A DNA stretch of 64,000 bases from Escherichia phage chee24. The notes beneath the pieces are model-generated. The model made no database searches and was not told the DNA's origin. It saw nothing but the letters and a program-made list of their open reading frames with translations. Below are positions 8,039 to 32,394 of this stretch, one piece after another; within the stretch, counting starts at the first letter, position 1, and the number at the start of each line of letters is the position of its first letter. The DNA is taken from sequence record NC_047885.1. One strand, 5' to 3'. The position numbers were made by a program, and so were the translations under genes.

Positions 8039-8986
8039 TTACTTGTTACGCATATCCATAATCATCTGGCCATCATAACCAGTGCCAACCACAGTCTGCG
8101 GTACACCACCTTGATACTTCTGAGCACGAATCATTTCAACTTCTAGTTGCTTCCAGCGAATCATCTCAGGAGTAATGGTACGTTGCAGAGCAGCGTTAGC
8201 TTCAGCTTCTTTCTTAGCTGCATACAGTTTAGCATCTGCATCACGTTCGTTTGCAATAGCTTGGTTGTTACGAGCTTCACGATCTGCTTCTGCTTGTTTA
8301 ACCTTCTGCTGTGCTTCTTGTTCAACGCGAGCTAATTCAGCTTTCGCAGCATTAACTTGTTCTTCGCGAACTTTGGTATTCTGTACCTGTTCCATAATTA
8401 CCGGTGGCAATGTAATATCCTGAAGGAACACTTGCTTAACTGTGTAACCATAGGGGCGTGCATACTCTTCAACTTCCTGTTGAATTGCAGTTTGCAATTG
8501 TGCTTGAATTTTAGCATCAAACAAATCTTGTGCTTTAGGTACAGACTTACCAAACTCACGAATAGTAGACAGTAATTTTTCAGTTACATACTTATCTAGA
8601 GCCTGATCTTGAGTACCCGCATTAATACGGTTGATCGGTGCCTTAGAACCATCAAACTGCAACATAACAGTCAGGTCAACAGTGGATTTAAACTTATCCT
8701 GGCTAGGAACCTGAAGTTTATCTAATTTTACAGCAATATCTTTTGTACTAAAAGTATCGAAAGATGCAAATGGGTTTACAAGATGGAAACCAGGTAATAC
8801 TGGGTTAGGATCTACTTTACCTAGAAATGTTTGGGTTTTAACCGTACCATCAGAAACAATAGTATATGAATTAAAAGCTAGGATTAAACCTGCTAAACCA
8901 ACTACAGCACCAATACTCCAACGTTTAATAGTGCGAATTACTTTTTGCTCAGAAGTCAGTTCTTTCATATTTTTAGTATTAGACAT
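8039..8986 (-). CDS. SPFH/band-7 (prohibitin/HflC-like) membrane protein (315 aa)
   Basis: N-terminal membrane anchor (WSIGAVVGLAGLILAF), SPFH-like core, long Ala/Glu/Gln-rich coiled-coil C-terminus. Confidence 0.65.
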   Translation of the reverse strand: MSNTKNMKELTSEQKVIRTIKRWSIGAVVGLAGLILAFNSYTIVSDGTVKTQTFLGKVDPNPVLPGFHLVNPFASFDTFSTKDIAVKLDKLQVPSQDKFKSTVDLTVMLQFDGSKAPINRINAGTQDQALDKYVTEKLLSTIREFGKSVPKAQDLFDAKIQAQLQTAIQQEVEEYARPYGYTVKQVFLQDITLPPVIMEQVQNTKVREEQVNAAKAELARVEQEAQQKVKQAEADREARNNQAIANERDADAKLYAAKKEAEANAALQRTITPEMIRWKQLEVEMIRAQKYQGGVPQTVVGTGYDGQMIMDMRNK

Positions 8987-9020
8987 ATATTTCCTTTGTT
9001 TTAGTTACAGTTAATAAAAT

Positions 9021-9095
9021 TGGCCGAGGTGACAGGATTCGAACCTGCATAAAGGAATTTAGAAGACTCCTGCCTCTCCCTTAGACTACACCCCG
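9021..9095 (-). tRNA. tRNA-Arg (anticodon UCU), CCA encoded
   Basis: Acceptor CGGGGTG/CACCTCG, anticodon stem GGAGT/ATTCC with loop CTTCTAA, T-arm GCAGG-TTCGAAT-CCTGT. Confidence 0.6.
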
Positions 9096-9597
9096 TTTAA
9101 GTATTTTTAAGAACTCTCGTAAAAACTCTTAAAAATACAGACGATACCGGGAGAGTCATAAGTCTCACTCATTAAGTATTTCAAGACAAAATACAGTAAC
9201 GTCTATTATTTTCCAGTTTAAGTCAAGGTGACTTAGTGGTTATGTCCTGCGGTATACTGAGGACTAGGTTAGGTTAGGGTCATGACTCCCCACCTTTTTG
9301 CTGCTACTCAACAGGAGTTATCGCGAATTACCTGTGCTATTGTGCACCATTAGTGGCATCTCTCATGCCAGCATTTCCCACTTTGTGGATAGTTTGAAAA
9401 ACTACTCCGATATGGAGAAAGAACTTCACTATCCTAGAATACCTTCTAAAGTTCTTCTTTAGCCTGGACATAGTTAAATCGTAATAAAACTATTCAGCAG
9501 ACTGGTTGGTTAGTCTGGAACCAACTACCGCGTGGTTTAGGCAGTGCGCAACTAACCTCGGAAGCTTTTACATTAAAAGCACCAGTTATCCAGTTCT

Positions 9598-9670
9598 TAC
9601 CGACCGTAGGATTCGAACCTACATCTTCCACCAGTTACGGCTTGATAATACCGTTTTATACTAGATCGGC
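9598..9670 (-). ncRNA. tRNA-like element (canonical acceptor stem and T-arm, irregular core)
   Basis: Acceptor GCCGATC/GGTCGGT and T-arm GTAGG-TTCGAAT-CCTAC; no standard anticodon arm identified. Confidence 0.3.
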
Positions 9671-9893
9671 AGTGTTACTACATAAGTGATTTCCACACCC
9701 CACTATCAGTAAATTAGAGAAGAGTTTAGGGGAGAGGTTTCAGACGCCCCATTTTACACGTTCTAGCCACTAACCGGGATTGCCGCCCCCTGTGTACTAG
9801 TTTTCCAACTAACCCACCGACTCTATTCAATGCGCTCCGGTTGGGATTCTGCACTCAGCGTAATCGGCTCGCTGTTCTCTAATTTATGAATAT

Positions 9894-9922
9894 ATTATAC
9901 AGAATTTATAAGCATTTAGCAA
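9894..9922 (-). promoter_or_regulatory. sigma70-like early promoter (minus sense TTGCTA-17-TATAAT)
   Basis: Plus-strand ATTATA 9894-9899 and TAGCAA 9917-9922; points into the 9100-9700 region, tRNA-Arg and the SPFH gene. Confidence 0.55.
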
Positions 9923-9930
9923 ATAAATTT

Positions 9931-10374
9931 TTAATTAAATTCGCCAGCAATCTGAGCAGCAGTACCACCATCATAACGCCCAGGAAATTCTTCCTTAATC
10001 GCTTTCATCAGCATACCTTTTGTAATTCCAGGGTTTAGCTTAACTAATTCTGCAAAGTATTTACGAATCTCAGTATCAGATAACTGAGGAGGCAGATACT
10101 CCTGCAACCACTTATTTAGAATGTATTCATACTGAGTGGACTGCAAGCTATAACTATCAAGATCTTGACCATGAAGTTTAGCTTTCATCTGGTTAATGCT
10201 TTTTAGTTGAGCTTTGAGATAAGACACAAATTGTTCAGAAGTGATGAAATCTTTATCAATACGCTGAAGATCCCCGATTATGGTCTGATAGCTTTTAGCG
10301 ACTTCTTTATCAGAACCATTAAACTTAGAATCCTGCAAAGCTCTACGCAAAACATCTAAAATATTCTCTTCCAT
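9931..10374 (-). CDS. GatB/YqeY-domain protein (147 aa)
   Basis: C-terminal YLPPQLSDTEI...GRYDGGTAAQIA resembles the YqeY family signature. Confidence 0.55.
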   Translation of the reverse strand: MEENILDVLRRALQDSKFNGSDKEVAKSYQTIIGDLQRIDKDFITSEQFVSYLKAQLKSINQMKAKLHGQDLDSYSLQSTQYEYILNKWLQEYLPPQLSDTEIRKYFAELVKLNPGITKGMLMKAIKEEFPGRYDGGTAAQIAGEFN

Positions 10375-10544
10375 TATTTCATTCCTAACGCTTGGTTAAA
10401 AGATTGTTCTGTCATAACTGCTGAGACTTTGGCGAAATCAAACTTTTTAGGGTTCGTAGTGATCTCAGCAACGTTGGAAGTTTTAACAGTTTTCGTAGTA
10501 CGAATACCGCGAGTATTAACACCAATAATTACAACTGATTTCAT
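10374..10544 (-). CDS. small hypothetical protein (56 aa)
   Basis: Unlisted ORF; stop overlaps the next ATG as TAATG. Confidence 0.3.
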   Translation of the reverse strand: MKSVVIIGVNTRGIRTTKTVKTSNVAEITTNPKKFDFAKVSAVMTEQSFNQALGMK

Positions 10545-10575
10545 ATTTCGCTTCCTCTCATTAATTTATGAAAGT

Positions 10576-10604
10576 ATTATACAGAAGTTTAAGTATTTAA
10601 GCAA
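10576..10604 (-). promoter_or_regulatory. sigma70-like early promoter (minus sense TTGCTT-17-TATAAT)
   Basis: Plus-strand ATTATA 10576-10581 and AAGCAA 10599-10604. Confidence 0.55.
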
Positions 10605-10612
10605 ATAAATTT

Positions 10613-11080
10613 TTAAGTTTTAGTGACAACAGGCTTATAAAATGTATGTCCCTTAATCTTAGTTGTTTTCTTAAACTTCTTTGTCCAGTATGGTTTATCT
10701 TTACCACTATGGAAGTATAAAGCTCCATGTGTAGGATCTTGTGGTAAATCAACGTAGTATATCACTCTAGCTAAATTCTTGGCGGTTTGCCAAGCCTCAT
10801 CAGTTTTATCAACTTTTGGTCTCTTAGATACCCAAGAGAACTGGTTAGACTGATATACTACTTTACAGTAGGAATCTGGGAATTTACCGGAGTTTACACG
10901 GTTTTTAGTAACATGTGCAATCGCCGTCATTCCCTTTATGCCCTCACCACGACTTTCGAAATAGATATTTTTAGCAATGCAATCTATTTCTTTTGCATCG
11001 TGCGATGCCTGACTACTAAAGCTGAAGGTAAGGGCAGCTACTAAAAGCAAAGCTGCCTTCATTCTTTTTACTCCTGCCAA
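10613..11080 (-). CDS. secreted cell-wall hydrolase, SleB/Hydrolase_2-like (155 aa)
   Basis: Signal-peptide-like MKAALLLVAALTFSFSSQA, then IYFESRGEGIKGMTAIAHVTKNRV motif. Confidence 0.6.
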   Translation of the reverse strand: MAGVKRMKAALLLVAALTFSFSSQASHDAKEIDCIAKNIYFESRGEGIKGMTAIAHVTKNRVNSGKFPDSYCKVVYQSNQFSWVSKRPKVDKTDEAWQTAKNLARVIYYVDLPQDPTHGALYFHSGKDKPYWTKKFKKTTKIKGHTFYKPVVTKT

Positions 11081-11385
11081 TCATATTCAACACGATTGGG
11101 ATTTTCTTTATACCCTAAGTCAAGCAAATCATTACGCATAGTTTGCTTAGCTACGGGATTCGAGGTTACTAGTACCACTTTCTTTGGTCTCTGCCCAAAT
11201 TCTAAGAGTAAACGAAGAATTTGATAACCTTCCATACCATCTACAGCCAAGTCATTATCCATATAAACAAAGTGGCCTGTGGTATCAGTTTTATTCAGAA
11301 ACTCGACAGCGGCTTCTGGGGTTCGAATGATAATGTCCATTCCATGAAGATTACGCACATCATCAATCAAAATATGAAAAGTCAT
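11068..11385 (-). CDS. hypothetical protein (105 aa), possibly receiver-like fold
   Basis: ORF; weak resemblance to phage cyclic-phosphate-processing receiver domains (HILIDDVR...). Confidence 0.45.
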   Translation of the reverse strand: MTFHILIDDVRNLHGMDIIIRTPEAAVEFLNKTDTTGHFVYMDNDLAVDGMEGYQILRLLLEFGQRPKKVVLVTSNPVAKQTMRNDLLDLGYKENPNRVEYDWQE

Positions 11386-11415
11386 AATAGCCTCGTTTCA
11401 TCAATTTAAAAATAT

Positions 11416-11444
11416 ATTATACAGAAAACTTAATAAATTAGCAA
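11416..11444 (-). promoter_or_regulatory. sigma70-like early promoter (minus sense TTGCTA-17-TATAAT)
   Basis: Plus-strand ATTATA 11416-11421 and TAGCAA 11439-11444. Confidence 0.55.
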
Positions 11445-11827
11445 ATACATTTTTAAATTGTGAAACTAGTAAACCGATAAACAGCCTAGAGGCGCCACAG
11501 GCCATATCTTACGAGCCATGTACCTTTGATCTAGGGTTTGAATCATCAACGAATACTTTGCATCTTTTAGCTTTAGAAGTTTAGAAGTTTGAGTTCTTTA
11601 AACTTTTCAGCTTTCATACTTAAATGTTGATCTTTGAAGTTGTGTCGGTAATATCAACGACGCTTTGTTTTTACGTGTCAGATTAAATGTCTGATGTAAT
11701 AAACATAATCTCCAATAGATTATACTTTATAGTATGGTCAGCGGTCTTATTTAACCTCGTATTTCAACCGCTGCTGCGAGGTAAGATGCTTGGGCTTTCG
11801 TCTACCGATTTACTAGCTTTTAAATTA

Positions 11828-12466
11828 TTACTCTACTTCAATGAAGGTAGAGGCGTTAGACTCGGACAGAACAAAGTCAACATTTGTTGCAAAGTCCTGA
11901 TATTCCTCGTCATGCTGCTTAATCAGCTTCTCCAGTTCCAGCGGATCAATCAAGAATGGAGTATTCTTGAGTTCCAGCAGGTTGAGCTGCATTTTAACTT
12001 CATCTTCGGAAGTTTTCTTATCGCGGGTAGCCATGCTATCCTGCAAACGCTCATATTTAGCATCAAACTGTGCTTTCTGCGTATTAAACTTAACCGTAGC
12101 GGCATGGAACTGCTTACGCATGTTAGCCAGCAGCTGAGCTTTAAGCTCCATAGAACGCTTAGCTTCAATTGCTTCCGCAACAGTCATCTTACGAGAACCA
12201 ATCTCAACTACTGTTTCCGCATTGCTCTTAATCAGAGCAGCTTTGATACGATCACGCTTGGACATCATATCCATGAGAGATTGGAAATCTGCCTTAATAC
12301 GTGCAGACAGATCGTCTACTTCGATTGCAGCGCCAACTACAACCTTATTTTTATCCTTACCTTCACCAACAGCGATCAGAAGCTGTTGTTCAGTAGCTTT
12401 ACGGATTTTAGCTTCCAGAGATTTGATAGTTGCCAGAGCGCGAGTTTTAGAGATACGAGTAGTCAT
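11828..12466 (-). CDS. hypothetical protein (212 aa)
   Basis: Minus-strand ORF with protein-like composition; preferred over the overlapping plus ORF. Confidence 0.55.
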   Translation of the reverse strand: MTTRISKTRALATIKSLEAKIRKATEQQLLIAVGEGKDKNKVVVGAAIEVDDLSARIKADFQSLMDMMSKRDRIKAALIKSNAETVVEIGSRKMTVAEAIEAKRSMELKAQLLANMRKQFHAATVKFNTQKAQFDAKYERLQDSMATRDKKTSEDEVKMQLNLLELKNTPFLIDPLELEKLIKQHDEEYQDFATNVDFVLSESNASTFIEVE

Positions 12467-12519
12467 TATTTGCTTCCTTATATGAAGTTTGAGATTTGAA
12501 TTTGTTTAAATTTGGTATA

Positions 12520-12702
12520 TTACAGACCAATTGCCAGCAGAGTGCGCAGAACAGTATCATTACTGTTATCAATTTTAGGATTAGCACGATTTAACAGATC
12601 AAAGATTTTCTGGATACCTGATTGACGTTCAGCCATACGACGTATACCAAGATTACGAGTAGCTTTCTTACCATTTTTACGAACATTTTTAGATACTGGC
12701 AT
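12520..12702 (-). CDS. small basic hypothetical protein (60 aa)
   Basis: ORF directly downstream of the promoter at 12743-12771. Confidence 0.4.
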   Translation of the reverse strand: MPVSKNVRKNGKKATRNLGIRRMAERQSGIQKIFDLLNRANPKIDNSNDTVLRTLLAIGL

Positions 12703-12772: not shown

Positions 12773-13474
12773 TCAAATTTTCATTTTTTCGATCATAGCT
12801 GCAACACAATAGCTTTCAACTAAGGCATCAAATGCAGGATCATGCTTAACCGGATATATCCCATAACGAATGGTGTCCATCTTCTCCATTTTAGCTATTG
12901 CCCAGCTAACACCTTCGGTCTCTAGAGCCTTATAACTGTATCCAGCTTGCATCCAGAGATTACGAAGAGATCGAACATTACCCAAATTCCAGAATTTCCA
13001 CGGAACTACCTCTTCATTGGTTCCAGCATGGAACGTGTTTGCAGAGTAGATAGTCATATCAAACTCTGGGCCATTGCCATAATACAAAGCATTTTCGCCT
13101 AGAGCCAACTCCATAATATTTTGGGCCATAGAGAAGGCAGCATAGTTTGAGCCTAATTTATTAGTGCAATGATGTTTACCATTTTGGAAGGCAATCAGTT
13201 TTGGATTACGTTCCTTCATAGCTTCCATAATATGTAGAGCTGATGGGCTATTCTTAGCTTGATCCATCCAGAATGCTAGAGTAGATGCCGTAACTTTAGC
13301 TCCAGAATTAAGCTGATCCTGCACATCCAAAGTAACAAATACTAAGTCAGGGTCTTTATCAATCCCATGCATAGCCACAAAAGCGAAAGAAGGCATTGCG
13401 ATATGAGTAGTACCACAATCTCCTGGAGTTCCTAGAGATTCAATATCTAGCATACCAAATGGTTTTACTTTCAT
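12773..13474 (-). CDS. DEDDh-type 3'-5' exonuclease-like protein (233 aa)
   Basis: N-terminal MLDIESLG (DxE) and C-terminal HDPAFDA (H-x4-D) motifs. Confidence 0.55.
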   Translation of the reverse strand: MKVKPFGMLDIESLGTPGDCGTTHIAMPSFAFVAMHGIDKDPDLVFVTLDVQDQLNSGAKVTASTLAFWMDQAKNSPSALHIMEAMKERNPKLIAFQNGKHHCTNKLGSNYAAFSMAQNIMELALGENALYYGNGPEFDMTIYSANTFHAGTNEEVVPWKFWNLGNVRSLRNLWMQAGYSYKALETEGVSWAIAKMEKMDTIRYGIYPVKHDPAFDALVESYCVAAMIEKMKI

Positions 13475-31983: not shown

Positions 31984-32394
31984 ATGACTACTCCAACTCA
32001 GTGGACTGATGAACTGTTCGAAAAAATGTCTTCCGAATACGTTGCTCGTATGGAGCAATTCCCAGAGGATGAACGTCCGGGTGTTAGCATGGAAATTGTT
32101 AGCGAAATTGCCCAGGAAAACGGTGTAACTCCGAACGGTTTTCGTATGAAGCTAACTAAAGCAGGTATGTATATCAAGAAAGCTGCTGGCTCCGCTTCTA
32201 AATCTAGCGCATCTGCTGGAGAAAAAGCTTCTGGTGGTTCTCGTACTTCCAAAGCCCAAGCTCATGCCGATCTTCGTTCAGCATTCTCTGATGCTGGCCT
32301 AGCACCAGATTTTCTGGATGATGCAATTATCGACAAACTGACCGGTAAAGCGGCTGCCCATCTTGCAGAAGCAATCCGAGCTATCACTAAGTAA
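31984..32394 (+). CDS. hypothetical protein (136 aa) with Ser/Ala-rich linker
   Basis: ORF behind AAGGAAA. Confidence 0.5.
   Translation: MTTPTQWTDELFEKMSSEYVARMEQFPEDERPGVSMEIVSEIAQENGVTPNGFRMKLTKAGMYIKKAAGSASKSSASAGEKASGGSRTSKAQAHADLRSAFSDAGLAPDFLDDAIIDKLTGKAAAHLAEAIRAITK

What the first reader, a model, noticed from the sequence alone, without database searches (positions are those of the whole stretch)
10613..11080. Early-region gene for a secreted SleB-like cell-wall hydrolase
The protein has a signal-peptide-like N-terminus and a Hydrolase_2/SleB-like motif, and sits among early metabolic genes rather than in a lysis cassette. A periplasm-targeted hydrolase made early might remodel peptidoglycan for DNA entry or superinfection control rather than lysis.
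Basis: inference. Interest (0 to 1): 0.5.

Follow-up and report, generated by a model that had tools for sequence, protein, structure and literature searches.

The report
Exported SleB-like hydrolase of T5-like phage
This is the long-annotated T5.083 gene of T5-like phages. It encodes a small cell-wall-cutting enzyme with a secretion signal, lies far from the phage's lysis genes, is real and conserved, and has never had its role tested.

Summary
The window is a T5-like phage, 100% identical to phage pork27.

- **Export signal:** residues 1-19 form a classical Sec signal peptide (MK / 13-residue hydrophobic core / SQA|S).
- **Enzyme domain:** the rest is a full Hydrolase_2 domain (Pfam 89.7 bits). 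The AlphaFold model (pLDDT 91) matches the SleB catalytic domain (TM 0.80).
- **Conserved residues:** the catalytic Glu36 is invariant. A Cys28/Cys66 pair appears or disappears together across homologues, which suggests a periplasmic disulfide.
- **Selection:** dN/dS is 0.11-0.16, and about 98% of close T5 relatives keep the gene.
- **Not a true SleB:** it scores 50 bits against the 236-bit cutoff and has no peptidoglycan-binding domain.

The holin and M15 endolysin lie about 21 kb away, but also in the early region, so position says little about timing or role.

The DNA-entry idea is unlikely, and superinfection control has no support. My best reading is a Sec-exported periplasmic lytic transglycosylase that acts as an accessory wall-weakening or lysis factor.

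The gene and its oddity are already in databases and papers, but only at annotation level.

The parts
10613..11062 (-). CDS of the exported SleB-like hydrolase. It is 149 aa plus a TAA stop, equals T5.083 / pork27 P27_0082, and the precursor is 16.9 kDa with pI 9.7.
   Evidence: ORF list and sequence. ATG/TAA and translation checked. The annotated CDS is identical in MF431731 and NC_005859. dN/dS 0.11-0.16.
11006..11062 (-). Predicted Sec signal peptide, residues 1-19 (MK-AALLLVAALTFSF-SSQA). The predicted signal peptidase I cut is after Ala19, leaving a 130-aa, 15.0 kDa mature protein.
   Evidence: Sequence features. The n-h-c design and small-x-small site are conserved while the sequence diverges. 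No dedicated predictor was available.
10637..10948 (-). Pfam Hydrolase_2 (PF07486) domain, residues 39-142. The structural match to the SleB catalytic domain extends over residues ~22-144.
10955..10957 (-). Codon of Glu36 in the YFESRGE motif, the presumed catalytic glutamate.
   Evidence: Aligned with the Glu of YGESRGE in SleB 4F55/4FET. Invariant in 27/27 homologues and in all 149 aligned sequences among 150 (148 of 149 cluster representatives plus phage PD06; the one representative with a gap there is N-terminally truncated). That this Glu is the catalytic residue of SleB comes from my memory of the crystal-structure papers, which could not be opened.
10979..10981 (-). Codon of Cys28, first half of a probable periplasmic disulfide.
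   Evidence: Cys28 and Cys66 are both present in 147 of 149 cluster representatives. Cys66 is present in 80/80 bacterial loci that were selected only on the first Cys. Both are absent in rV5, PD06, CHA_P1 and Bacillus SleB.
10865..10867 (-). Codon of Cys66, second half of the probable disulfide.
   Evidence: As for Cys28.
11071..11074 (-). Shine-Dalgarno GGAG, 8 nt upstream of the ATG, lying inside the last codons of the upstream gene. This suggests translational coupling.
11068..11385 (-). Upstream gene of the same transcription unit (equals T5.084). It encodes a 105-aa cREC_REC receiver-like protein, probably cytoplasmic, with no evident functional link to the hydrolase.
   Evidence: Pfam PF20274, E=1.4e-14. 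The adjacency is kept in T5, S124, UTK0009 and, by gene size and position, in Pantoea phage AAS21, but is lost in Klebsiella phage phi1_146058.
11416..11444 (-). Sigma-70-type promoter-like site TTGCTA-17-TATAAT with an A-rich upstream stretch. It is the likely early promoter of the cREC-hydrolase unit.
   Evidence: Consensus scan, 10 of 12 matches. Coordinates checked. It corresponds to the promoter annotated upstream of T5.084 in NC_005859. No terminator-like site was found in 9000-12600. Consensus evidence only.
10576..10604 (-). Second promoter-like site of almost the same design (TTGCTT-17-TATAAT), directly after the hydrolase stop codon. It serves the downstream genes and marks the 3' limit of the unit.
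   Evidence: It corresponds to 'promoter P-D/E 33' annotated in T5.

Best explanation
The gene encodes a small, basic enzyme of the SleB / Hydrolase_2 type, a family classed as lytic transglycosylases. The host RNA polymerase transcribes it from an early sigma-70 promoter together with the upstream cREC gene. The Sec system exports the precursor and signal peptidase I cuts it after Ala19. The 15-kDa mature protein folds in the periplasm, probably locked by a Cys28-Cys66 disulfide. There, Glu36 cleaves the MurNAc-GlcNAc glycan strands of the host wall. It needs no holin to reach its substrate. The physiological role I commit to is an accessory muralytic factor. It pre-weakens or helps dismantle the wall, so that lysis by the separate T-type holin, M15 L-Ala-D-Glu peptidase and spanins is faster or more complete under natural conditions. 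It is not the main endolysin and is probably not essential in the laboratory. Shown here: gene, expression signals by consensus, export-signal features, fold, conserved catalytic residue, selection, distribution. Inferred: cleavage site, disulfide, bond specificity, timing, and the whole physiological role.
For: Identity and fold. Glu36 is invariant. SleB-domain enzymes are classed as lytic transglycosylases (review PMC6403190).

Export: the signal-peptide design is conserved across diverged homologues. The co-occurring Cys pair is found in the exported proteobacterial/phage clade and is absent from Bacillus SleB.

Functional importance: dN/dS is 0.11-0.16. There are 434 phage records with a copy at >=80% identity, against 442 records with a T5-type DNA polymerase at >=80%.

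A separate canonical system exists: holin (Phage_holin_T, 377 bits) and an M15-type endolysin about 21 kb away.

The domain is probably competent on Gram-negative walls. In Chaseviridae phage Mangalitsa a Hydrolase_2 protein with an N-terminal export signal is annotated as the endolysin and sits directly after a lambda-S-type holin. Hydrolase_2 is the only putative endolysin of T4-like phage pf16 (PMC5587285). Neither has been tested biochemically.

There is a precedent for Sec-exported lysis enzymes that accumulate outside the membrane before lysis: Lys44 of phage fOg44 (PMC6116005).

All T5 lysis genes are early-region genes, so an early promoter is compatible with a lysis role.
Against: I found no experimental datum on T5.083 or any phage homologue.

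An active, freely soluble wall-cutting enzyme exported from early times should risk premature lysis, and no control mechanism is visible. The N-terminus does not look like a SAR membrane tether, and I saw no obvious inhibitor gene beside it.

If the gene were merely redundant with the main endolysin, its near-universal retention and strong purifying selection would be unexpected.

In most other lineages sampled the homologue also sits among early or replication genes rather than with lysis genes: rV5 next to rIIA, PAK_P3-like next to helicase and dCMP deaminase, and metagenomic phages next to Thy1/Metallophos. That pattern hints at a role distinct from lysis.

Bacillus SleB needs muramic delta-lactam, which E. 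coli lacks, so activity on ordinary peptidoglycan is assumed rather than shown.
Confidence: 0.45

Rival explanations
1. Early, holin-independent wall remodelling unrelated to lysis, a kind of 'periplasmic auxiliary metabolic enzyme'. The exported transglycosylase would loosen or turn over the wall during the latent period. This might let the infected cell enlarge, block septation, or release muropeptides or precursors.
For: Exported Hydrolase_2 genes lie among early, replication or nucleotide-metabolism genes in several unrelated virulent phage lineages. Retention is strong and selection is purifying despite a separate endolysin. The PAK_P3 omics paper speculated that its homologue gp151 explains the accumulation of cell-wall precursors during infection (PMC4933390).
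Against: This is purely circumstantial. Gene position is weak evidence in T5, where lysis genes are also early. No phenotype is known. The PAK_P3 statement is a hypothesis in a discussion section.
Confidence: 0.25
2. The enzyme would serve DNA entry or superinfection control, for example by altering the wall so that secondary phages cannot inject.
For: It is periplasmic and probably made early. In rV5 the homologue lies next to rIIA.
Against: The gene lies about 42 kb into the genome and can act only after its own DNA has entered. T5 virions already carry a peptidoglycan-cleaving tape-measure protein (PMC6116005). From memory, the known periplasmic exclusion factors are inhibitors or receptor blockers (T4 Sp, T5 Llp), not hydrolases. 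Cutting the wall would be expected to ease entry rather than hinder it. No supporting observation was found.
Confidence: 0.07
3. It is the phage's endolysin, as RefSeq and many GenBank records label it.
For: RefSeq names T5.083 'endolysin'. PHROG 938 'endolysin' matches at E=5.5e-30. Homologues are the cassette endolysin in Chaseviridae.
Against: T5-like phages have a holin-adjacent M15 L-Ala-D-Glu peptidase. From memory, this is the biochemically characterised EndoT5. It is present in this very genome at 20.35-20.76 kb next to a T-type holin. The SleB-like gene is about 21 kb away and carries its own export signal.
Confidence: 0.05
4. It is a decaying or catalytically inert leftover, or only a wall-binding protein.
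For: Occasional truncated copies exist: a 96-aa version in Klebsiella phage vB_Kpn_3 and a 102-aa N-terminally truncated version in a metagenome. Vibrio T5-like phages mostly lack the gene: 357 Vibrio records match the polymerase, while Vibrio is not among the top hosts for the hydrolase.
Against: The catalytic Glu and other core residues are invariant. dN/dS is 0.11-0.16. The model is of high confidence over the full domain. The gene is near-universal in Markadamsvirinae.
Confidence: 0.04

Closest known systems
T5.083 (YP_006911) of phage T5 and its orthologues in Tequintavirus/Epseptimavirus, annotated 'cell wall hydrolase SleB' or 'endolysin'
   Same: It is the same gene: 149 aa with 4 substitutions relative to T5, the same neighbours and the same promoter positions, and 100% identity to pork27 P27_0082. 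The AKFV33 paper of 2012 already listed 'cell wall hydrolase SleB' among early-region products (PMC3326045). A 2024 paper noted a SleB-domain 'endolysin far from holin' in T5-like Salmonella phages (PMC11180984).
   Different: Nothing material. pork27 labels it only 'hypothetical protein'.
Catalytic domain of Bacillus SleB, the spore cortex-lytic lytic transglycosylase (PDB 4F55, 4FET)
   Same: The fold matches (TM 0.80, rmsd 2.3 A, 28-31% identity). The ExRGE motif with the presumed catalytic Glu is shared. Both belong to Pfam PF07486.
   Different: The phage protein has no N-terminal peptidoglycan-binding domain. It scores 50 bits against the 236.5-bit cutoff of the SleB equivalog model. It has the Cys28/Cys66 pair that SleB lacks. 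The host has no muramic-lactam cortex, so the substrate must be ordinary peptidoglycan.
Hydrolase_2 endolysins inside lysis cassettes of Gram-negative phages (Chaseviridae phage Mangalitsa gp80; putative endolysin of T4-like pf16)
   Same: Same domain, same Cys pair and Glu, and an N-terminal hydrophobic export segment (PMC5587285).
   Different: Those genes sit directly beside a holin and appear to be the phage's lysis enzyme. The T5 gene is about 21 kb from the holin, and the phage has another endolysin.
Sec-secreted endolysin Lys44 of Oenococcus phage fOg44, and SAR endolysins (P1 Lyz, phage 21 R)
   Same: Holin-independent export through Sec, with accumulation at the wall before lysis (PMC6116005).
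   Different: The catalytic families and the host type (for Lys44) differ. The T5 N-terminus looks like a cleaved signal peptide, with a 13-residue core and a conserved small-x-small site, rather than an uncleaved Gly/Ala-rich SAR anchor. The cognate holin is T4-T-type, not a pinholin.
Exported Hydrolase_2 proteins in early regions of other virulent phages (rV5 'SleB', PAK_P3/CHA_P1 gp151-type, phi92-like PD06 gp075, Stenotrophomonas IME-SM1, uncultured marine phages)
   Same: A single Hydrolase_2 domain behind an N-terminal signal or anchor, encoded among early, replication or nucleotide-metabolism genes and not beside a holin.
   Different: Identity is 33-45%. rV5, PD06 and CHA_P1 lack the Cys28/Cys66 pair and have other cysteines. 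None has been characterised either.

Membership tests
Pfam Hydrolase_2 (PF07486) / SleB catalytic-domain family | Profile match above the curated gathering score over the whole domain | tested here: met
   89.7 bits against a cutoff of 27, E=2.2e-25, profile positions 1-100 of 100.
Pfam Hydrolase_2 (PF07486) / SleB catalytic-domain family | Three-dimensional fold of the SleB catalytic domain | tested here: met
   AF2 model pLDDT 91.3. Foldseek hits 4FET/4F55 with probability 1.00, TM 0.79-0.80 (target-normalised) and rmsd 2.3-2.9 A. The next hits have E>2.
Pfam Hydrolase_2 (PF07486) / SleB catalytic-domain family | Conserved glutamate of the ExRGE motif at the end of the first domain helix (presumed catalytic residue) | tested here: met
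   Glu36 aligns with the SleB motif. It is invariant in 27/27 sequences and in all 149 aligned sequences among 150.
Pfam Hydrolase_2 (PF07486) / SleB catalytic-domain family | Lytic transglycosylase chemistry (1,6-anhydro-MurNAc products) | not testable with these tools
   This needs purified enzyme, sacculi and HPLC-MS. The classification of the domain as a lytic transglycosylase is taken from review PMC6403190.
SleB proper (spore cortex-lytic enzyme, NCBIfam TIGR02869 equivalog) | Full-length match above the equivalog cutoff | tested here: not met
   50.3 bits against a cutoff of 236.5. Only profile positions 79-201, the catalytic half, are matched.
SleB proper (spore cortex-lytic enzyme, NCBIfam TIGR02869 equivalog) | N-terminal peptidoglycan-binding domain ahead of the catalytic domain | tested here: not met
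   Pfam finds only Hydrolase_2. Residues 1-19 are a signal peptide and the domain starts at about residue 22.
SleB proper (spore cortex-lytic enzyme, NCBIfam TIGR02869 equivalog) | Dependence on muramic delta-lactam substrate and a YpeB partner | not testable with these tools
   From memory, the enterobacterial hosts make no spore cortex. No YpeB-like neighbour is seen in the annotation.
Canonical holin-dependent (cytoplasmic) endolysin | No export signal; accumulates in the cytoplasm until the holin opens the membrane | tested here: not met
   An N-terminal signal peptide is present and conserved.
Canonical holin-dependent (cytoplasmic) endolysin | Encoded in a cassette with holin and/or spanins | tested here: not met
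   Holin and endolysin are at 20.35-21.42 kb, against 42.6-43.1 kb for this gene in MF431731. The layout is the same in T5.
SAR (signal-anchor-release) endolysin | Uncleaved N-terminal transmembrane segment rich in Gly/Ala/Ser, long enough to span the membrane, usually paired with a pinholin | tested here: not met
   The hydrophobic core is only 13 residues, 7 of them Leu/Val/Phe, and is followed by a conserved small-x-small site (SQA, SHA, AYA, VQA, SFA). The phage's holin is T4-T-type. These are sequence heuristics only; cleavage was not measured.
Sec-secreted, signal-peptide endolysin (Lys44 type) | Typical cleavable n-h-c signal peptide on a muralytic enzyme | tested here: met
   with conservation. 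This rests on sequence; SignalP was not available.
Sec-secreted, signal-peptide endolysin (Lys44 type) | Is the enzyme responsible for host lysis | not testable with these tools
   This needs a phage mutant. A separate holin-adjacent endolysin exists.
Virion-associated lysin for DNA entry | Structural protein or domain of the tail/injection apparatus, encoded in the structural module | tested here: not met
   The gene is in the early region, is a single small domain and has a Sec signal. The tape-measure and tail genes lie at about 49-64 kb of the window. Virion proteomics were not examined.

The most novel reading that the evidence does not exclude
Exported single-domain SleB-type transglycosylases might form a widespread, unrecognised class of early, holin-independent 'envelope-conditioning' enzymes of large virulent phages of Gram-negative bacteria. 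Lineages carrying them include T5-like, rV5-like, phi92-like, PAK_P3-like and uncultured marine phages. Their job would not be lysis but remodelling of the wall during the latent period. That could mean enlarging or reshaping the cell, changing muropeptide release, or influencing superinfection or wall-linked defence. The T5 gene would then be the most tractable model for the class.
Probability: 0.22. Interest if true: 0.6.

Novelty: already known. Interest (0 to 1): 0.3.

Why it matters
T5 is a classical model phage, yet this conserved, secreted wall enzyme has no assigned role. About 98% of close T5 relatives keep it under strong purifying selection, even though they have a complete holin/endolysin/spanin system.

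Homologues with export signals recur in early regions of several unrelated therapeutic-phage lineages, where databases label them 'endolysin' without evidence. Settling the role would correct a common mis-annotation. It would also show whether virulent phages routinely tamper with the host wall before lysis. A small, basic, probably disulfide-stabilised Gram-negative-active muralytic enzyme could be of practical interest as well.

As a scan finding, however, it adds nothing that is not already in GenBank and in at least two papers.

Tried and rejected
**Literature**
- Searches for functional data on T5.083 or any phage Hydrolase_2 protein returned only annotation-level mentions.
- The single supplementary file held as text for the CRISPRi-ART genome-wide T5 fitness paper has no entry for YP_006911, T5.083 or 'cell wall hydrolase'.
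- No supplements are held for the phiR2-01 proteogenomics paper.
- The SleB crystal-structure paper could not be opened, so the identity of the catalytic Glu is from memory plus alignment.
- One search and one in-paper look-up failed on a too-short term.

**Functional links considered and dropped**
- I looked for a partner, inhibitor or immunity gene beside the hydrolase. The upstream gene is a cREC_REC receiver-like protein and the downstream gene is a 56-aa DUF7616 protein, whose N-terminus shows no hydrophobic stretch by eye (translation). Neither looks periplasmic, and the Klebsiella relative lacks the cREC neighbour. I rejected a functional link.
- A lipoprotein or Tat route is ruled out: there is no lipobox Cys and no RR motif.
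- A SAR anchor was rejected on core length and the conserved cleavage motif.
- I considered complementarity with the main endolysin's bond specificity. Homologues co-occur with an M15 peptidase (T5), a class I chitinase-domain (PF00182) endolysin (LNA4, PMC12031403) and others, so there is no rule.

**Null or blocked computations**
- Rfam on 8900-11500 found only tRNA matches.
- No terminator-like sites were found in 9000-12600.
- The plus-strand ORF 10787..11044 (85 aa) overlapping the gene is a mechanical ORF with no support.
- The Cys28-Cys66 distance could not be measured, because model coordinates are not exposed by the tools.
Full report
**What the window is.** A 4-kb stretch around the finding is 100% identical to five 'T5-like' phages from meat (pork27 MF431731 and others) and 97-98% identical to many Tequintavirus genomes. 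Window position 1 corresponds to about position 32000 of MF431731. The finding is therefore a gene of a T5-like virulent phage of E. coli/Salmonella.

**The observation.**
- The ORF list gives a minus-strand ORF 10613..11080 with a TTG start.
- The real start is the ATG at 11062. It has a GGAG 8 nt upstream and lies 5 nt after the TAA of the preceding gene.
- GenBank (P27_0082) and RefSeq (T5.083, YP_006911, product 'endolysin') use this start.
- The 149-aa product differs from T5's at four positions.
- Pfam gives a complete Hydrolase_2 domain (PF07486, 89.7 bits against a cutoff of 27, E=2e-25, residues 39-142). PHROGs gives phrog_938 'endolysin'.
- phmmer against the PDB finds only the catalytic domains of Bacillus SleB (4F55, 4FET; E of about 1e-8).
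- An AlphaFold2 model built on 27 homologues has pLDDT 91.3. Foldseek against the PDB returns those same SleB structures with probability 1.00, TM 0.80 and rmsd 2.3 A, and nothing else below E=2.
- Both halves of the observation, the signal-like N-terminus and the SleB-like domain, are therefore real.

**Signal peptide.**
- Residues 1-19 read MK / AALLLVAALTFSF / SSQA, followed by SHD: a positive start, a 13-residue core with 7 Leu/Val/Phe, and a small-x-small site.
- There is no lipobox cysteine and no twin-arginine motif.
- In orthologues and more distant homologues the sequence of this segment changes freely but the design is kept. Examples are MLKVLLLLATTISSLPAYA|T, MKAAILLFALASSFNVQA|Q, MRKTLALVFLLFSFNSFA|S and MRTISKLLIASAIALATFA.
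- Among the 149 best cluster representatives from a library of 1.84 billion proteins, 142 of the 146 with an N-terminal extension have a hydrophobic stretch there.
- The core is too short for a membrane anchor, and the cut site is conserved. I therefore read it as a cleaved Sec signal, not a SAR anchor. This is an inference, because SignalP was not available.

**Active site and probable disulfide.**
- Glu36 in YFESRGE aligns with the Glu of YGESRGE in SleB. It is invariant in every homologue aligned.
- Two cysteines, Cys28 and Cys66, are both present in 147 of 149 representatives.
- In 80 of 80 bacterial loci that were selected by a pattern containing only the first cysteine, the second is also present.
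- In rV5, PD06, CHA_P1 and Bacillus SleB both are replaced.
- This all-or-none pattern suggests a structural disulfide, which fits periplasmic folding. I could not measure the distance in the model.

**Not a true SleB.** The NCBIfam equivalog model for spore SleB scores 50.3 bits against a cutoff of 236.5 and matches only its C-terminal catalytic half. There is no peptidoglycan-binding domain. The protein is a member of the Hydrolase_2 family, not an orthologue of SleB. The family is very large: 14,485 cluster representatives at E<=0.001 and 5,389 at E<=1e-10. The closest cellular relatives are 35-44% identical proteins of Alphaproteobacteria, Burkholderiales and some Gammaproteobacteria, usually with longer N-terminal regions.

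**Expression context.**
- The gene is the second of a two-gene unit behind a sigma-70-type promoter-like site, TTGCTA-17-TATAAT at 11444..11416, which coincides with a promoter annotated in T5.
- The first gene encodes a cREC_REC receiver-like protein.
- A near-twin promoter follows the stop codon at 10604..10576, and no terminator-like site is present.
- Surrounding genes are tRNAs, a YqeY-like gene, an Rv2179c-like exoribonuclease, RNase H, thymidylate synthase, DHFR and ribonucleotide reductase.
- The holin (T4 holin-T family, 377 bits) and the M15-type endolysin lie at 20.35-21.42 kb of the same genome, about 21 kb away and outside the window.
- In T5 they are at 19.9-21.0 kb, with Rz-like spanins at 22.5-23.2 kb, separated by two unrelated genes.
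- All of these are on the same strand in the early region. 'Early region' therefore does not by itself argue against a lysis role.

**Selection and distribution.**
- Pairwise dN/dS between Tequintavirus and Epseptimavirus orthologues is 0.11-0.16.
- tblastn finds the protein in 1277 phage records, 434 of them at >=80% identity. The T5-type DNA polymerase is found at >=80% identity in 442 records. Nearly every close relative therefore keeps the gene.
- Vibrio T5-like phages appear mostly to lack it: 357 Vibrio records match the polymerase, while Vibrio is not among the ten commonest host names for the hydrolase.
- A few truncated copies exist.

**Homologues elsewhere.**
- In Pantoea phage AAS21 the local gene order is kept.
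- In rV5 the gene lies next to rIIA.
- In PAK_P3-like CHA_P1 it lies between dCMP deaminase and helicase genes.
- In IME-SM1 it is near an RNA ligase.
- In phi92-like PD06 and in Aeromonas and Salmonella phages it sits among small unknown genes.
- In two uncultured phage contigs of 85 and 94 kb it is next to Thy1, Metallophos and dGTP-diphosphohydrolase genes.
- Of the seven phage homologues translated, all but one (CRP-345) carry an N-terminal signal or anchor.
- In contrast, in Chaseviridae phage Mangalitsa the Hydrolase_2 protein directly follows a lambda-S-type holin and is annotated as the endolysin. The T4-like phage pf16 has only this type as its putative endolysin (PMC5587285).
- The domain is thus credited with Gram-negative lysis in annotations, though never tested. 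In most large virulent phages sampled it is a second, separately placed, exported enzyme.

**Literature.**
- The AKFV33 paper (2012) lists 'cell wall hydrolase SleB' among early-region products (PMC3326045).
- A 2024 paper notes SleB-domain 'endolysins far from holin' in T5-like Salmonella phages and asks which one is used (PMC11180984).
- The PAK_P3 omics paper speculates that its homologue explains the accumulation of wall precursors (PMC4933390).
- I found no experiment on any of these proteins.

**Interpretation.**
- The molecular identity is solid: a Sec-exported, probably signal-peptidase-cleaved and disulfide-bonded periplasmic lytic-transglycosylase-type enzyme. I put this at about 0.85.
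- The physiological role is open. I favour an accessory muralytic role that assists the holin/M15 peptidase/spanin system (0.45 for the full statement). The domain is credited with phage lysis in other annotated genomes, Sec-exported lysis enzymes have precedent (PMC6116005), and all T5 lysis genes are early.
- The main rival is pre-lysis wall remodelling (0.25). The recurrent early-region placement and the strong retention despite a separate endolysin favour it.
The gene lies about 42 kb into the genome, and the virion's tape-measure protein already carries a wall-cleaving activity (PMC6116005).
- Superinfection control is unsupported but not excluded.

**Verdict.** This is a correct observation of a gene already annotated for about two decades and already remarked on in papers. 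It is ordinary as a discovery. A genuine but modest open question about its role remains.

Noticed in passing
window 9597-9671 (-), within about 9097-9815: ARAGORN calls a 75-nt 'tRNA-Ser' with the odd anticodon ACT, and Rfam tRNA scores 34.5 bits (gathering score 29). A 75-nt length is short for a class II tRNA-Ser, which suggests it lacks the long variable arm. The pork27 record puts a 'hypothetical protein' CDS (window 9494-9631) over it. T5 annotates the whole stretch as 'RNAX, stable RNA with unknown functions'. It may be a tRNA-like element inside that stable RNA.
   Followed up: partly
window 11068-11385 (-): The gene co-transcribed with the hydrolase encodes a cREC_REC domain ('cyclic-phosphate processing receiver', PF20274, E=1.4e-14). 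It is annotated only as hypothetical in T5 and pork27. The tRNA-rich neighbourhood may be relevant, but this was not examined.
   Followed up: no
window 9931-10374, 11828-12466, 12773-13474 (all -): Several GenBank product names here look wrong. 'Recombination related exonuclease' is a weak YqeY-like match. 'Tail fiber protein' (212 aa) has no Pfam match and sits in the early region. 'Metallopeptidase' matches the Rv2179c-like 3'-5' exoribonuclease domain.
   Followed up: partly
window 8039-8986 (-): A 315-aa SPFH/Band 7 (prohibitin-like) protein with an N-terminal membrane segment. T5 annotates it as 'lipoprotein' (T5.080). It is a second envelope-associated early product close to the hydrolase.
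   Followed up: no
L099 3762-4418 (MF431731 20761-21417), outside the window: The holin of this phage belongs to the T4 holin-T family (PF11031, 377 bits). From memory, T4's T has a large periplasmic domain; it is controlled by a secreted periplasmic antiholin, RI (PMC8385771 abstract). Whether T5-like phages have any periplasmic regulator of this holin is unclear.
   Followed up: no
window 11416-11444 and 10576-10604 (-): Two promoter-like sites flank the cREC-hydrolase unit and share an almost identical design: an A-rich stretch (AAAAATGTA / AAAAATTTA), then TTGCT(A/T), a 17-nt spacer ending in TTCTG, then TATAAT. This looks like a repeated early-promoter cassette.
   Followed up: partly
L004 2902-5381 (rV5_ev156): In rV5-like phages the exported SleB-like gene overlaps by 4 nt the start of rIIA, a gene classically linked to lysis timing and exclusion. 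This hints at co-expression.
   Followed up: no
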